64,000 nt of DNA from Escherichia phage phiP4. This document shows positions 43,255 to 48,540 of the stretch, piece by piece (the stretch's first letter is position 1; each line of letters starts with the position of its first letter). The notes beneath the pieces were generated by a model that saw nothing but the letters and a program-made list of their open reading frames with translations, was not told where the DNA came from and did not search any database. The translations under genes and the position numbers were made by a program. The stretch lies in the sequence record PP993145.1; one strand, given 5' to 3'.

Positions 43255-43471
43255 AAAATGGGAAACAAGGAAGTTCCCAGTAAAAGAGCGTAAAGTTCCT
43301 GTTTACGACACTTCGGAAAAGCTATGTAGGGTGGTACCACATAGATTAGCTGGCATCCCTAACATATCCGAGTGGTTACTTAAACAACGGAAAACAAACG
43401 TGTCTCTTCGCATCGGCTTTGAGTTAGATAAAGTCTATGCTGAACTTGCTTCTTTGCTCAAGGAATCGTAA
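43229..43471 (+). CDS. hypothetical protein
   Basis: 80-aa ORF overlapping the 3' end of the preceding gene. Confidence 0.3.
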   Translation: MLEMTVKNKKWETRKFPVKERKVPVYDTSEKLCRVVPHRLAGIPNISEWLLKQRKTNVSLRIGFELDKVYAELASLLKES

Positions 43472-43516
43472 AAATTTATTTGCTTTCAGGAAAATTTTTC
43501 TGTATAATAGATTCAT
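43470..43516 (+). promoter_or_regulatory. PN25-like strong early promoter
   Basis: AAAAATTTATTTGCTTTCAGGAAAATTTTTCTGTATAATAGATTCATAAATTTGAGAGAGGAG matches the T5 PN25 promoter as I recall it; TTGCTT 43480-43485, TATAAT 43503-43508. Confidence 0.8.
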
Positions 43517-43539
43517 AAATTTGAGAGAGGAGTTTAAAT

Positions 43540-44244: not shown

Positions 44245-44488
44245 GCTAACTGATTTGCTTAAAGATGGGGAAGTAAAAACTCTCTATCGTAGAAGCTGGG
44301 ATAATGATAATAATGGCTTAGTATTACTAACTCTAGATGCTGACTCAGATGTAGTTACCCAACATACCTGGGTAGCTGGTAATTATCCCTATAGTGAGGT
44401 TGTTACGTTAACAGTATGCGAAGCTATTGCCGACGATTGGGAGGTTGCCAGCATCGATGATATGCTCGCTGTTGGCCTGGTGGAGTAA
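44213..44488 (+). CDS. hypothetical protein
   Basis: 91-aa ORF. Confidence 0.4.
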   Translation: MIKKKENAVSRLTDLLKDGEVKTLYRRSWDNDNNGLVLLTLDADSDVVTQHTWVAGNYPYSEVVTLTVCEAIADDWEVASIDDMLAVGLVE

Positions 44489-44499
44489 CTACAGAAAAA

Positions 44500-44542
44500 T
44501 TTCAGTTGCTTAATCCTATAATTCTTGATATAATATTCTCAT
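44500..44542 (+). promoter_or_regulatory. T5-type early promoter
   Basis: TTGCTT (44506-44511), 17-bp spacer, TATAAT (44529-44534). Confidence 0.55.
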
Positions 44543-44591
44543 AGTTTGAAAGAACTATTCTGTTTAATTCTTAATTAAGGAAATATAAAAT

Positions 44592-45386: not shown

Positions 45387-45695
45387 ATGAGCGAACAGGT
45401 AAATCAAAACTATGAAGGACACGTTGATGACCAGTCCATCATACTTTGGGAGAAGGAGGGAGAACAAGTAAGATTAACAGTATCTGAATTTCGTGGGAAT
45501 CTATACATGGGTATTCGTTACTGGCTTCTTGATATTAATGATGAATGGTTTCCAACGAAATCTGGCTTCTCTTTTCCTTACACCCTAGAAACAACATCAC
45601 AGCTTTTCTACGCGTTTACACAGATTCTTAGCGAATCTGAGGTTTTGCATGAAGTACAGAAACGAGCTGAAGAACTCAAAGCCAAGAATGCCTAG
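45387..45695 (+). CDS. hypothetical protein
   Basis: 102-aa ORF. Confidence 0.45.
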   Translation: MSEQVNQNYEGHVDDQSIILWEKEGEQVRLTVSEFRGNLYMGIRYWLLDINDEWFPTKSGFSFPYTLETTSQLFYAFTQILSESEVLHEVQKRAEELKAKNA

Positions 45696-45712
45696 TTCTT
45701 GGCTTTTTCTTT
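45681..45712 (+). terminator. rho-independent terminator
   Basis: Hairpin gccaagaa...ttcttggc followed by TTTTTCTTT. Confidence 0.55.
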
Positions 45713-45714
45713 AT

Positions 45715-45760
45715 AAATGTATTTGCTTTCAACTCAGTTTTGTTATATAATATTTATATA
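45715..45760 (+). promoter_or_regulatory. T5-type early promoter
   Basis: TTGCTT (45723-45728), 17-bp spacer, TATAAT (45746-45751). Confidence 0.55.
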
Positions 45761-45782
45761 AATTAATGAGAGATATAAATAA

Positions 45783-46754
45783 ATGACTAATGTAAAAGAA
45801 TTTATTAAACGCTGTCAAGAAGCATATTATCAAGGCATGTCTTTAATCTCTGATGAAGAATATGATCGTCTTATTAAAAGATTCCCACTAGAGGAAGAGA
45901 TTGGGCCTAAGGGTGATATTCCACATCTGTATCGTATGTATTCTTTACAGAAAGTTTATTATAATCGTGGAGATAAACCTCCGTTTAACCCATTAGGTCA
46001 GGTAGAAACTGATAAGTTAGATGGTTGTGCGATTTCTCTGCTATATATTAATGGAGAATTTGTTCAAGCATTAACTCGTGGTAATGGTATTCTAGGGAAT
46101 GATGTCACAAGCAACGTAAGATTGCTGAACATCCCTAAAAAGATCTCCCAAAAAGTACCTACTCAAATCACTGGTGAAGTTCTAATTACAAAAGAAGTAG
46201 AAAATAAACGTAACTTTGCCTCTGGTGCTATTAACCTCAAAGATAGTGATGATTTCGTACAACGTATCGGAGAAGGTGGTTTAATCTTCGTTGCATACGG
46301 TATCCAGTGTTCTGCTGAATCTGTAGGTATTACAGAAGCATATTTAAAAGATATGCTTTGGCTGGAGAATGAGAACTTCTTAACAGTTGTTAATGTGCGT
46401 TCCTTCTTTAAATGGATTCCGACGGACGGTAAAGTTGTTCGTATTAATGATAACAACAAATTCTTTCGTGAAGGCTGGACTAATAAATTTCCTCGTGGCG
46501 CATTCGCTATTAAAGAAGATGAAGAAGGCGAAATTACAACTCTTACTAAAGTTGAATGGCAGGTAGGGGCTTCTGGTAAAGTAACTCCAGTTGGTTATTT
46601 CGAACCGGTAATTATTGATGATGCTACAATTGTTAAAGCGACTCTTAATAACGTTGATTATATTAACTCTCTTGATCTAGAGATCGGTTGCCAGATTCGA
46701 GTAATTCGTGCTGGTGGTGTAATCCCGTGTATAGTAGAGCGAGTATACGATTAA
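45783..46754 (+). CDS. ligA: NAD-dependent DNA ligase, N-terminal portion (adenylation and OB domains)
   Basis: 323 aa; KxDG adenylation motif DKLDGCAISLLY and TRGNGILGNDVTSNV block; ORF ends before the Zn-finger region. Confidence 0.75.
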   Translation: MTNVKEFIKRCQEAYYQGMSLISDEEYDRLIKRFPLEEEIGPKGDIPHLYRMYSLQKVYYNRGDKPPFNPLGQVETDKLDGCAISLLYINGEFVQALTRGNGILGNDVTSNVRLLNIPKKISQKVPTQITGEVLITKEVENKRNFASGAINLKDSDDFVQRIGEGGLIFVAYGIQCSAESVGITEAYLKDMLWLENENFLTVVNVRSFFKWIPTDGKVVRINDNNKFFREGWTNKFPRGAFAIKEDEEGEITTLTKVEWQVGASGKVTPVGYFEPVIIDDATIVKATLNNVDYINSLDLEIGCQIRVIRAGGVIPCIVERVYD

Positions 46755-46799
46755 TACATAACCCTTTGCTACCCATCTACCATATCGGAATTATAAAGT

Positions 46800-46842
46800 G
46801 GTTATTGACATTTTCGCCGCTTAGGTATATACTATTATCATT
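46800..46842 (+). promoter_or_regulatory. sigma70-type promoter inside the ligase gap
   Basis: TTGACA (46805-46810), 17-bp spacer, TATACT (46828-46833). Confidence 0.5.
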
Positions 46843-46889
46843 CAGTTGAGGGATAGAAAGTTATGGCGAGGGTAAGCAAAGTTAGTTAA

Positions 46890-46935
46890 AATTGTAGTTG
46901 CTAAATGCTTAAATACTTGCTATAATATTTATATA
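46890..46935 (+). promoter_or_regulatory. T5-type early promoter inside the ligase gap
   Basis: TTGCTA (46898-46903), 17-bp spacer, TATAAT (46921-46926). Confidence 0.5.
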
Positions 46936-46953
46936 AATTGATAAGGAAGAAAT

Positions 46954-47727
46954 TTGATGAAAATCGAAATTCCAACACAATGTCCCTCTTGTGGTTCTAA
47001 GCTAGATCTTGTCAACGGACAATTATTCTGTCGGAATAAGTCCAACTGTCCAGCGCAATCAAGTAAGTTAATTGAGAACTTCTGTACAAAAATGAAGTTA
47101 AAGGGCTTTGGTCCGAAAACTATTGAGAAGCTGGAGCTGACGAAGATTTCAGAACTATTTTACCTAACCGAAGAAGATTTGGTTAGAGCCGTGGGTAGCA
47201 AGGTTGCCGCTAAGTTAATTAGCGAATTAAATACTAAAGTTCGCGGAGACATTGACTTTGGTTCAGTTCTCGGTTCTTTAGGAATCCCTCTAATCGGAGA
47301 GGTTGCAGCAAAGAAATTATCCCAAAATTGCACTAGCTTCCACGATGTGAAGGCTGACGGCAAGGCTGGAGAAAACTACAAAGCCTGGCTAAATTCCCCA
47401 CAAGGCAAGGATGTTATCGAACTACCGTGGAAATTCTCAACTGGTGCTAAAGCTAAAACCGTCGTTACTGATGATTTAGTTGCCCAGCCAAATGGAATCG
47501 TGGTATGTATTACCGGATCTTTGCAAGATTTTGCAAATCGAACGGATGCAACAAACTATTTAGAAAGTCTAGGATATACGGTTAAGAAATCCGTTACCAA
47601 AGACGTCAAATACCTAATCTGTGAGGATGAATCAAAACGTTCCTCCTCATCTTATAAGAAAGCCGAAACGAATGGGATAGAAATCCTGTCGATTAAAGAA
47701 CTATTGGAGAAAAATAATAATGTCTAA
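46954..47727 (+). CDS. ligA: NAD-dependent DNA ligase, C-terminal portion (Zn finger, HhH, BRCT-like)
   Basis: 257 aa; Cys4 Zn finger CPSCGS...CRNKSNCPAQ directly at the N-terminus as in LigA domain 3. Confidence 0.7.
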   Translation: MMKIEIPTQCPSCGSKLDLVNGQLFCRNKSNCPAQSSKLIENFCTKMKLKGFGPKTIEKLELTKISELFYLTEEDLVRAVGSKVAAKLISELNTKVRGDIDFGSVLGSLGIPLIGEVAAKKLSQNCTSFHDVKADGKAGENYKAWLNSPQGKDVIELPWKFSTGAKAKTVVTDDLVAQPNGIVVCITGSLQDFANRTDATNYLESLGYTVKKSVTKDVKYLICEDESKRSSSSYKKAETNGIEILSIKELLEKNNNV

Positions 47728-48487
47728 ACTGAACTGGAACGTAGAAGGTGTAACCGAGTCTCTGAAAGCAAAAGCCACTGCTCTGGGTGTTGCTGTAATC
47801 TCTCAAGAACAAGTAGCTGCTATCGCTGCTGAACTGGCCGCTGAAACTGGCAAAGATGTTACCGCTCGCTCTGTTGGCTCTAAACTGCGTAAAGAAGGTT
47901 TTGAAGTACAGAAAGCTAATGAAGTACAGAAATCTCCGTGGACTCCTGAGCAGGAAGCTGAACTGGTTGATTTCCTGAACGCTCATGCTGGTCAGTATAC
48001 CTATGCTGAAATCGCTGCTGCTGTAGCTGGTGGTCAGTTCGGTGCTAAGCAGGTACAGGGTAAGATCCTGAGTCTGGAAATGACCGCTTCTGTTAAGCCA
48101 ACCGAAAAAGCTGCTGCTGTTCGTTCCTTCACTCCGGATGAAGAAACTGATTTTGTTAATCAGGTTGTTGCCGGTGCTACTATTGAAGCTATCGCTGCTC
48201 ACTTCGGTCGCAATATTAAGCAGATCCGTGGTAAAGCTCTGAGCCTGCTTCGTGAAGGTCGTATCGCTGCTATGCCGGTACAGGAAACTTCAAGTGCTAA
48301 AACTCGTGAAGATCTGTTAGAAGGTCTGGATCTGGTTAACATGACTGTTGCTGAGATCGCTGAGAAAACTGGTAAGTCTGAGCGTGGTGTTAAATCTATG
48401 CTGTCTCGTCGTGGTCTGGTTGCTAAGGACTATGATGGTGCCGCTAAGCGTGCTAAACTGGATGCAAAAGCTGCGGCTGCTGAATAA
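47720..48487 (+). CDS. abundant repeat-containing protein (possible DNA-binding protein)
   Basis: 255 aa; four internal repeats of an (E/A)IAxxxGxx...K.LSL..G unit; extreme host-optimal codon bias. Confidence 0.55.
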   Translation: MSKLNWNVEGVTESLKAKATALGVAVISQEQVAAIAAELAAETGKDVTARSVGSKLRKEGFEVQKANEVQKSPWTPEQEAELVDFLNAHAGQYTYAEIAAAVAGGQFGAKQVQGKILSLEMTASVKPTEKAAAVRSFTPDEETDFVNQVVAGATIEAIAAHFGRNIKQIRGKALSLLREGRIAAMPVQETSSAKTREDLLEGLDLVNMTVAEIAEKTGKSERGVKSMLSRRGLVAKDYDGAAKRAKLDAKAAAAE

Positions 48488-48503: not shown

Positions 48504-48540
48504 TAAGGGGAGGGGGCTATGCTCCTTCCCCTTTTTGCAT
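48504..48540 (+). terminator. rho-independent terminator
   Basis: Hairpin aggggaggg...ccttcccct followed by TTTTGC. Confidence 0.5.

What the first reader, a model, noticed from the sequence alone, without database searches (positions are those of the whole stretch)
45783..47727. NAD-dependent DNA ligase split into two ORFs by a 200-bp promoter-containing spacer
The adenylation/OB portion (45783-46754) ends with a stop codon. After a spacer containing two promoters (TTGACA-17-TATACT and TTGCTA-17-TATAAT) a second ORF begins exactly with the LigA Zn finger and continues through HhH/BRCT-like sequence. So the ligase is either a two-subunit enzyme or interrupted by an intervening element, and the C-terminal half has its own transcription signals.
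Basis: partly seen in the sequence, partly recalled or inferred. Interest (0 to 1): 0.55.

Follow-up and report, generated by a model that had tools for sequence, protein, structure and literature searches.

The report
T5 phage two-gene DNA ligase
This is the already-annotated two-subunit NAD-dependent DNA ligase (ligA + ligB) of a T5-like phage, with the classical T5 early promoters P-K28b and P-K28a sitting between the two genes; it is real and functional but not new.

Summary
ORF A (45783-46754, 323 aa) carries the LigA domain Ia, adenylation and OB domains. A 202-nt spacer follows. ORF B (46957-47727, 256 aa) starts eight residues before the four-Cys zinc finger and continues through HhH and BRCT.

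The window is a T5-like phage. The spacer is 100% identical to phage T5, whose RefSeq record annotates ligA, promoters "P-K 28b" and "P-K 28a", ligB, then D5. It is not a sequencing error, pseudogene, intron or intein:
- About 440 phage genomes share the arrangement.
- Both halves are under purifying selection (dN/dS 0.01-0.2).
- The spacer has stops in all frames and no Rfam match.
- PDB 9HU3/9I5I holds both chains of the homologous ligase of the T5-like Providencia phage PR1.

Added here:
- The A | promoter | B | D5 module is conserved in about 100 loci. The gap is never under 64 nt, and every gap scanned (27 divergent loci) holds a near-consensus promoter.
- Single-chain (~560 aa) versions of the same compact ligase occur in the same synteny, so the arrangement most likely arose by gene fission at the OB-Zn linker.
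- A GIY-YIG endonuclease occasionally occupies the gap.

Verdict: already known; low interest.

The parts
45678..45706 (+). Terminator-like hairpin ending the upstream unit (after the T5.115 homolog)
   Evidence: 12-bp stem followed by a T run; the AKFV33 record annotates a terminator at the equivalent place.
45703..45777 (+). T5-type early promoter for ligA (-35 TTGCTT at 45723-45728, -10 TATAAT at 45746-45751)
   Evidence: 100% identical to an annotated, unnamed promoter of T5 RefSeq. Its -10 and initial transcribed region is a 25-nt direct repeat (92%) of the same part of P-K28a.
45783..46754 (+). ligA: ligase subunit A, 323 aa. Short domain Ia (YYQGMSLISDEEYDRL, aa 15-30), nucleotidyltransferase domain (KLDG with Lys78; motifs III, IIIa, IV, V) and OB fold
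   Evidence: Pfam; PDB hits 9hu3_A at E 5.6e-104 and E. coli LigA 2owo at E 4e-26; alignment A2; motif coordinates; 99.7% identical to T5 LigA.
46755..46956 (+). 202-nt intergenic spacer between the two ligase genes
   Evidence: Stops in all frames; no Rfam hit; no terminator-like site; 100% identical to T5; diverges far less than synonymous sites of the flanking genes.
46785..46859 (+). Promoter P-K28b (-35 TTGACA at 46805-46810, -10 TATACT at 46828-46833)
   Evidence: 100% match to T5 'promoter P-K 28b'; scan hit 11 of 12; core and first ~30 transcribed nt invariant even in a Klebsiella phage.
46878..46952 (+). Promoter P-K28a (-35 TTGCTA at 46898-46903, TG-extended -10 TATAAT at 46921-46926) with the ligB leader
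   Evidence: 100% match to T5 'promoter P-K 28a'; scan hit 10 of 12 with TG; also annotated as a promoter in AKFV33.
46943..46949 (+). Ribosome-binding site AAGGAAG, 7 nt before the ligB ATG
   Evidence: Read directly from the sequence.
46957..47727 (+). ligB: ligase subunit B, 256 aa. Cys4 zinc finger (C9, C12, C25, C31), HhH region and BRCT domain
   Evidence: Pfam; PDB hits 9hu3_B at E 1.8e-81 and T. filiformis LigA 1dgs residues 400-653 at E 1.3e-10; alignments A2 and A3; 95.4% identical to T5 LigB.
47720..48487 (+). D5 gene (DNA-binding early protein). Its ATG overlaps the end of ligB by 8 nt (ATGTCTAA), so it is in the same transcription unit and probably translationally coupled
   Evidence: and the T5 annotation. 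A D5 homolog directly follows ligB in all 27 divergent loci tested and in 11 more.
48505..48533 (+). Terminator-like hairpin closing the ligB-D5 unit
   Evidence: 13-bp stem with 8 GC pairs, then a T run; annotated as a terminator in AKFV33.

Best explanation
The window is from a T5-like phage (Tequintavirus, Demerecviridae). Region 45783-47727 holds the phage's NAD-dependent DNA ligase, encoded as two separate genes.

Subunit A (ligA, 323 aa) has everything needed for chemistry: a short NMN-binding domain Ia, the nucleotidyltransferase domain with the adenylated Lys78, and the OB fold. Subunit B (ligB, 256 aa) has the DNA-holding parts: the Cys4 zinc finger, the HhH region and BRCT. The break lies inside the flexible OB-to-zinc-finger linker, so no domain is damaged.

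Inferred mechanism: A self-adenylates with NAD+. A and B then assemble non-covalently, through the native OB/Zn interface and/or on nicked DNA, into the usual LigA clamp and seal nicks during T5 replication.

The 202-nt spacer is not an intron or a relic. It holds the tandem strong early promoters P-K28b and P-K28a, which add transcription of ligB and the overlapping D5 gene on top of read-through from the ligA promoter; no terminator lies between A and B. The unit ends at the terminator at 48505-48533.

The arrangement most likely arose by fission of a compact single-chain (~560 aa) phage LigA at the site where a promoter for the downstream genes sits.

Shown: gene structure, domain content, identity to T5, conservation and selection, and the existence of a solved two-chain homolog. 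Inferred: heterodimer assembly for this particular protein, promoter activity in this phage, unequal subunit expression, and the direction of evolution.
For: Identity and annotation
- T5 RefSeq lists ligA (T5.116), P-K28b, P-K28a, ligB (T5.117) and D5 in that order.
- The window's spacer and both promoters are 100% identical to T5.
- PMC3632103 cites T5 ligA and ligB as ligase subunits.

Domains
- Pfam hits.
- Alignment to E. coli LigA shows KxDG, motifs III-V, the OB fold, Cys4, HhH and BRCT split cleanly at the linker.

Two-subunit enzyme
- PDB 9HU3/9I5I hold chain A (339 aa, E 5.6e-104) and chain B (248 aa, E 1.8e-81).
- These chains are 100% identical to the two ORFs of Providencia phage vB_PreS_PR1, which are separated by a 192-nt gap with two promoter-like sites.

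Function retained
- dN/dS is 0.01-0.13 for ligA and 0.08-0.20 for ligB.
- Spacer mismatch is 0-9% against synonymous divergence of 6-52%.

Generality
- In 90 loci A lies directly upstream of B as a separate ORF, with gaps of 64-1360 nt; 11 more loci show the same.
- Every one of 27 divergent gaps has a 9-12 of 12 sigma-70 match; 19 of 27 were reached by at most 5% of shuffles.
- D5 always follows B.
- More than 100 clusters (50% identity) of stand-alone ~250-aa B proteins exist.

Fission
- Ten clusters of 555-578-aa single-chain proteins have the same compact A-type and B-type halves.
- Two of them lie in the same D3 / T5.114 / T5.115 / ligase / D5 / D6 synteny.
Against: - No biochemical test of this protein was possible, and no paper describing 9HU3/9I5I or T5 ligase reconstitution was found in the library. 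Heterodimer formation is therefore inferred from a homolog about 55% identical.
- Neither subunit carries an obvious extra dimerisation element at the break, so how tightly they associate off DNA is unknown.
- The motif IV lysine (E. coli K290) is arginine in all T5-type sequences; the consequence is unknown.
- The promoter scan count for the region is not above chance, so promoter function rests on annotation and conservation.
- The NJ tree used for fission versus fusion is star-like and unreliable.
Confidence: 0.93

Rival explanations
1. The two proteins work independently. Subunit A is a self-sufficient minimal ligase. Subunit B (Zn-HhH-BRCT) is a separate DNA-binding or scaffold protein that works with D5 rather than as part of the ligase.
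For: B has its own strong promoters and is translationally coupled to D5, not to A. No added dimerisation element is visible at the break. GC3 and synonymous divergence differ between the two genes.
Against: A and B are adjacent and in the same order in every one of about 100 loci. Single-chain versions exist in the same synteny. Both chains were deposited together in two PDB entries. From established knowledge of LigA, recalled rather than tested here, fragments lacking the HhH region are poor at nick sealing.
Confidence: 0.04
2. The ligase gene is interrupted by an intervening genetic element (group I/II intron, intein, or homing-endonuclease cassette) that is removed or bypassed to give one polypeptide.
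For: The break falls exactly between domains. In Salmonella phage SP3 and one relative, a GIY-YIG endonuclease gene does sit in the same gap.
Against: In the window the spacer is only 202 nt and has no Rfam match at E<=1. It has stops in all frames, with B in a different frame, and B has its own RBS and ATG. The spacer is fully accounted for by two annotated promoters. No endonuclease or intron ORF is present, and the inter-subunit ORFs of distant relatives are not endonucleases. The PDB entries hold two separate chains.
Confidence: 0.01
3. It is a decaying pseudogene or a sequencing/assembly error that broke a single ligase ORF.
For: A stop codon inside what is normally one gene is the classic signature of either.
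Against: The same stop and spacer occur in about 440 independently sequenced genomes. dN/dS is far below 1 in both halves. The split persists to about 40% protein identity in environmental phages. A 202-nt insertion carrying promoters is not a frameshift error.
Confidence: 0.01

Closest known systems
Bacteriophage T5 ligA (T5.116, YP_006944) / ligB (T5.117, YP_006945), with promoters P-K28b and P-K28a
   Same: Same gene pair, order and spacer. LigA is 99.7% and LigB 95.4% identical, and the spacer and both promoters are 100% identical.
   Different: Essentially nothing differs. The window is another Tequintavirus isolate (best match Salmonella phage EH1, 98.3% over 2.5 kb). Its LigB is 256 aa, against 259 aa in T5.
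Two-subunit ligase of Providencia phage vB_PreS_PR1 (PDB 9HU3, 9I5I)
   Same: Same two-gene architecture with a ~190-nt two-promoter gap. The chains match the window proteins at E 5.6e-104 and 1.8e-81, about 55% identity.
   Different: It comes from a different genus of T5-like phages, with divergent sequence. Its primary publication was not found in the library, so what was measured is unknown to me.
Canonical bacterial LigA (E. coli LigA, PDB 2OWO; T. filiformis 1DGS)
   Same: Same domain set and order (Ia, NTase, OB, Zn, HhH, BRCT). The catalytic KxDG lysine and the four zinc-binding cysteines are conserved.
   Different: Canonical LigA is one 671-aa chain, against 323 + 256 aa on two chains here. 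The T5 type is compact, with a shortened Ia-NTase linker, deletions in the NTase domain and a shorter HhH region. The motif IV Lys is replaced by Arg.
Single-chain compact T5-type ligases (P0031 and P0094, 555-578 aa, metagenomic)
   Same: Same compact A-like and B-like halves, 33-38% identical, in the same D3...ligase-D5-D6 neighbourhood.
   Different: These are one continuous ORF with a ~14-aa linker where the window has stop + promoters + start.
Genes-in-pieces created by mobile endonucleases in T4-like phages (e.g. nrdA split by mobE in Aeromonas phage Aeh1). This comparison is recalled from memory and was not tested here
   Same: An essential phage enzyme is encoded as two adjacent ORFs that still make an active enzyme.
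   Different: Here the universal occupant of the gap is a promoter, not an endonuclease gene. A GIY-YIG gene is found in the gap in only 3 records (2 phages) of about 440.

Membership tests
NAD-dependent DNA ligase (LigA) family | Nucleotidyltransferase (adenylation) domain with the motif I KxDG lysine and motifs III, IIIa, IV and V | tested here: met
   PF01653 E 2.2e-23. KLDG at aa 78-81, GEV at 131-133, RNFASG at 143-148, DGKVVR at 215-220, AIKED at 242-246. The E. coli K290 equivalent is Arg.
NAD-dependent DNA ligase (LigA) family | N-terminal domain Ia (NMN-binding signature YY..ISD.EYD.L), which confers NAD+ specificity | tested here: met
   YYQGMSLISDEEYDRL at aa 15-30 aligns with the E. 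coli LigA Ia motif. This is sequence-level only, and the Ia-NTase linker is shorter than in E. coli.
NAD-dependent DNA ligase (LigA) family | OB-fold domain following the NTase domain | tested here: met
   PF03120 E 3.8e-22, aa 252-321. Aligned to E. coli residues 284-390.
NAD-dependent DNA ligase (LigA) family | Cys4 zinc finger | tested here: met
   C9, C12, C25 and C31 of subunit B are invariant in 32 homologs and align to the four E. coli zinc-finger cysteines.
NAD-dependent DNA ligase (LigA) family | HhH DNA-binding domain and C-terminal BRCT | tested here: met
   BRCT PF00533 scores 35.1 bits against a cut-off of 21.3. The HhH hits are below cut-off (24.4 against 27). However, the whole of B aligns to 1DGS residues 400-653 at E 1.3e-10.
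NAD-dependent DNA ligase (LigA) family | All domains on one polypeptide | tested here: not met
   Two ORFs separated by 202 nt with stops in all frames. This is the known two-subunit variant.
NAD-dependent DNA ligase (LigA) family | NAD+-dependent nick-sealing activity | not testable with these tools
   Needs biochemistry.
T5-type two-subunit ligase (LigA/LigB of Demerecviridae) | Separate A (Ia-NTase-OB) and B (Zn-HhH-BRCT) genes, adjacent on the same strand, followed by D5 | tested here: met
T5-type two-subunit ligase (LigA/LigB of Demerecviridae) | Promoter(s) in the A-B gap (P-K28b and P-K28a in T5) | tested here: met
   100% identity to the T5 annotated promoters. A promoter-like site is present in all 27 divergent gaps. 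Activity was not measured here.
T5-type two-subunit ligase (LigA/LigB of Demerecviridae) | A and B form one enzyme | not testable with these tools
   Only indirect support: both chains of the PR1 homolog are present in PDB 9HU3/9I5I.
Intron- or intein-interrupted gene | Self-splicing RNA structure, or an in-frame Hint/endonuclease insert | tested here: not met
   No Rfam hit at E<=1 in 45600-47900. The frames differ and stops occur in all frames. The alignment-based fold gave 0 conserved pairs.
Gene split by a free-standing homing endonuclease | Endonuclease ORF between the two halves | tested here: not met
   None in the window. One is present only in Salmonella phage SP3 and one relative (GIY-YIG, PF01541 at 26.1 bits).

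The most novel reading that the evidence does not exclude
The ligase fission is not a neutral accident. It is maintained because a strong promoter for ligB-D5 must sit exactly at the OB/Zn linker: every scanned gap among about 100 split loci holds one. Subunit B would then be made with D5, in excess over subunit A, and would have a second, ligase-independent role. One candidate role is as a nick-binding BRCT scaffold at T5's site-specific nicks or at the replisome. The structured P-K28b leader (z = -3.96) could tune this expression. None of this appears in the annotation or in any paper I could find.
Probability: 0.12. Interest if true: 0.45.

Novelty: already known. Interest (0 to 1): 0.15.

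Why it matters
For annotation, it confirms that the stop codon is genuine and that the locus should be called ligA/ligB, not a pseudogene or frameshift.

Biologically, the T5-type ligase shows that the covalent OB-Zn link of LigA is dispensable. This is of some interest for ligase engineering, and a solved structure of a relative already exists. The family-wide pairing of the break point with a promoter, together with fused forms in the same synteny, gives a tidy natural example of gene fission at a domain linker. It does not open a long-standing question.

Tried and rejected
- Literature searches for a paper on the two-subunit ligase, the 9HU3 entry, PR1 ligase or the P-K28 promoters found nothing usable beyond PMC3632103 naming ligA and ligB.
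- Rfam search of 45600-47900 gave only a chance miRNA hit at E 0.34 on the upstream terminator, so an intron or known RNA is rejected.
- The ~270-bp length difference in some relatives is an extra small ORF upstream of ligA, not in the spacer.
- The inter-subunit ORFs of Vibrio and Proteus relatives gave no endonuclease hits. One is DprA-like and one belongs to an unknown PHROG.
- The 8-codon mini-ORF after P-K28b (46864-46890) is not conserved in the Klebsiella phage, so it is rejected as coding.
- A conserved RNA structure in the leader is not supported: RNAalifold found 0 pairs. The hairpin near the second promoter is significant in only 3 of 6 lineages and absent in the window's own sub-window, so it is left unresolved.
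- The search for related loci failed with the 32-sequence alignment, and with P0098 it found nothing.
- The NJ tree of B regions is too star-like to decide how many fission or fusion events occurred.
Full report
**What is in the sequence**

Region 45783-47727 holds two plus-strand ORFs.
- ORF A (45783-46754, 323 aa) matches the LigA adenylation domain (PF01653, E 2.2e-23) and the LigA OB domain (PF03120, E 3.8e-22).
- ORF B ends at 47727. The mechanical ORF list starts it at TTG 46954. ATG 46957, which lies 7 nt after AAGGAAG, is the start used in T5 and in the solved homolog.
- ORF B (256 aa) matches BRCT above the Pfam cut-off and HhH families more weakly. It aligns over its whole length to residues 400-653 of Thermus filiformis LigA.

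In an alignment with E. coli LigA, subunit A ends "...RAGGVIPCIVERVYD*" and subunit B starts "MKIEIPTQCPSCGS...". Together these bracket the E. coli OB-to-zinc-finger linker "...[34 protein letters not shown]". The break is therefore inside a linker, and no domain element is missing.
- Subunit A has the Ia signature (aa 15-30), KLDG (Lys78) and motifs III-V.
- Subunit B has four cysteines (9, 12, 25, 31) that are invariant in 32 diverse homologs.

The spacer 46755-46956 is 202 nt.

**Where it comes from and what is already known**

The 2.5-kb region matches 441 phage records, and 428 of them cover at least 80% of it. All are T5-like phages (Tequintavirus, Epseptimavirus and relatives). [quoted passage not shown]

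The T5 RefSeq record lists, in order: ligA (T5.116), "promoter P-K 28b", "promoter P-K 28a", ligB (T5.117), then D5 (T5.118).
- The window's spacer is base-for-base identical to T5.
- Window 46785-46859 matches T5's annotated P-K28b at 100%, and 46878-46952 matches P-K28a at 100%.
- LigA is 99.7% and LigB 95.4% identical to T5.
- A T5 helicase paper cites ligA and ligB as the ligase subunits (PMC3632103).

From my own memory, not verified here: the P-N25, P-N26 and P-K28 promoters are the strong T5 early promoters characterised by Bujard's laboratory in the 1980s.

The Protein Data Bank holds two entries (9HU3, 9I5I) with a 339-aa "DNA ligase (NAD+)" chain and a 248-aa "DNA ligase subunit B" chain. 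These match the window proteins at E 5.6e-104 and 1.8e-81. I reconstructed the chain sequences from the printed alignments. They are 100% identical to the two ORFs of Providencia phage vB_PreS_PR1, another T5-like phage. There the genes are separated by 192 nt with two promoter-like sites. I found no paper describing these entries.

**Ruling out the trivial and the exotic**

- Sequencing error: excluded, because hundreds of independent genomes share the arrangement.
- Pseudogene: excluded. dN/dS is 0.01-0.13 for ligA and 0.08-0.20 for ligB, and the pair persists to about 40% protein identity.
- Intron or intein: excluded.
  - There is no Rfam match at E<=1.
  - The frames differ and stops occur in every frame of the spacer.
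  - B has its own RBS and ATG.
  - The spacer content is explained by the promoters.
- Terminator between A and B: none is predicted. Terminator-like hairpins lie at 45678-45706 and 48505-48533.

The likely transcription picture is therefore: P(ligA) drives ligA, with read-through joined by P-K28b and P-K28a, into ligB and D5, ending at the terminator. The D5 ATG overlaps the ligB stop (ATGTCTAA at 47720-47727).

**The spacer is under selection**

The 221-nt spacer query is at least 99% identical in 201 records, whereas only one record reaches 99% over the whole 2.5 kb.
- Pairwise spacer mismatch is 0-9%, while synonymous-site differences in the flanking genes are 6-52%.
- Against a Klebsiella phage the spacer differs by 28% while synonymous sites are saturated at about 75%.
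- The conserved block runs from about 46791 to the ligB ATG. It covers both promoter cores and their initial transcribed regions.

**How general the arrangement is**

The A and B genes are separate in Klebsiella, Proteus, Providencia and Vibrio T5-like phages. Their gaps range from 189 to 1360 nt, and the larger gaps contain 1-3 small ORFs: unknown proteins, plus a DprA-like gene in Vibrio phage Thalassa, but no endonucleases.

A whole-library HMMER search with subunit B found more than 100 clusters (50% identity) of stand-alone ~250-aa proteins.

In 80 viral-contig loci retrieved with a B alignment, plus the 10 annotated phage loci, A is always directly upstream of B on the same strand and never fused. 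The gap is never below 64 nt.

In 27 divergent loci:
- Every gap contains a 9-12 of 12 match to TTGACA-17-TATAAT, preceded by an A-rich tract.
- In 19 of them the score was reached by at most 5% of shuffles.
- A D5 homolog follows B immediately in all of them.

In many environmental phages the gap is little more than one promoter plus an RBS. The enteric T5-likes have two promoters in tandem.

**Fused relatives**

The same search returned ten clusters of 555-578-aa proteins whose C-terminal ~250 residues match subunit B. Their N-terminal halves have the T5-type compact features: a short Ia, KLDG, and "DG.V.R" in motif IV.

Two of them (P0031, P0094) were located on contigs. There they sit in the same neighbourhood as in T5: D3, T5.114 and T5.115 homologs upstream, and D5 and the D6 helicase downstream.

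So the same gene in the same place exists in one piece or in two. Canonical LigA is single-chain, and six of the ten fused forms branch near the canonical sequences. The NJ tree behind that placement is poorly resolved. Fission at the linker is the more economical reading, but the number and direction of events is not settled.

**How it most likely works**

Established LigA mechanism, from general knowledge:
- Domain Ia plus the NTase domain react with NAD+ to adenylate the motif I lysine.
- The NTase, OB and HhH domains encircle nicked DNA.
- AMP is transferred to the 5' phosphate and the nick is sealed.

Here subunit A carries the first set of functions and subunit B the DNA-clamping set. 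The PR1 entries show that both chains were deposited together. I infer that the window's A and B assemble through the native OB/Zn interface and on DNA. There is no extra interaction module at the break, so the affinity of the two subunits off DNA is unknown.

The separate promoters and the coupling of ligB to D5 suggest B may be made in excess of A. This is inference only.

**Side observations**

- The RNA that would start at P-K28b folds unusually well (z = -3.96). Relatives share no pairing register, and a short hairpin by the second promoter is significant in only 3 of 6 lineages. This is unresolved.
- In Salmonella phage SP3 and one relative, a GIY-YIG endonuclease gene is inserted exactly between the ligA stop and P-K28b. 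The gap is therefore occasionally colonised by mobile genes, but this is rare and absent from the window.

**Verdict**

The "two-subunit enzyme with its own promoters" reading is right, and the "intervening element" reading is wrong. The feature is already annotated in phage T5, and a related enzyme has a solved structure. Interest is low. The family-wide promoter-at-the-break pattern and the fused forms in the same synteny are modest additions.

Noticed in passing
window 43470-43534 and 44486-44560: These stretches match T5's annotated promoters P-N25 (100% over 65 nt) and P-N26 (96%), upstream of the D2 and D3 homologs. From memory, P-N25 is the 'T5 promoter' used in expression vectors.
   Followed up: partly
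L037:4199-4840 (Salmonella phage SP3, MG387042/NC_048001), equivalent to window ~46755-46790: A 213-218-aa GIY-YIG endonuclease ORF (PF01541, 26.1 bits) is inserted exactly between the ligA stop and P-K28b. It is found in only 3 phage records, representing 2 phages. Sporadic mobile-gene invasion of the inter-subunit gap.
   Followed up: yes
L009:3465-3659 (Salmonella phage 1-23): A 64-aa ORF of unknown function, overlapping the ligA stop, occupies an extra ~150 bp at the same insertion point. It has no Pfam or PHROG hit. Vibrio and Proteus relatives also have small ORFs that start at the ligA stop.
   Followed up: partly
L113:2151-3857 and L114:593-2263: Single-chain 568-aa and 556-aa T5-type ligases lie in the same D3...D5-D6 synteny, i.e. 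unsplit versions of this gene.
   Followed up: yes
window 46840-46975: The predicted P-K28b leader RNA folds to -32 kcal/mol, z = -3.96, pairing the leader with the P-K28a -10 region. No consensus structure is shared with relatives. Short hairpins at the second promoter are strong in the PR1, L040 and Proteus loci only. The function, if any, is unknown.
   Followed up: partly
window 45783-46754 versus 46957-47727: The two genes differ in GC3 (0.25 against 0.38) and in synonymous divergence (for example 0.19 against 0.09 versus T5). Identity is mosaic: LigA is 99.7% but LigB only 95.4% identical to T5, while other phages are about 99% for both. This suggests recombination with a breakpoint at the invariant spacer.
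   Followed up: partly
window 46425-46442 (subunit A aa 215-220, DGKVVR): The motif IV lysine of E. coli LigA (K290 by alignment) is arginine in all T5-type ligases, both split and fused.
   Followed up: no
L002:784-1056 (Escherichia phage Stokescottia, and other records with '2 pieces'): Many relatives carry an extra 273-nt ORF between the ligA promoter and ligA. It is absent from the window.
   Followed up: no
window 45746-45770 and 46921-46945: A 25-nt direct repeat (92%) covers the -10 and initial transcribed sequence of the ligA promoter and of P-K28a. This indicates paralogous T5-type promoters.
   Followed up: partly
GenBank OR847187.1 / OR846978.1 ('Listeria phage LM 4-11-1'), seen: A short record labelled as a Listeria phage encodes a LigA subunit 100% identical to the window's. 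It is probably a mislabelled or contaminating T5-like contig.
   Followed up: no
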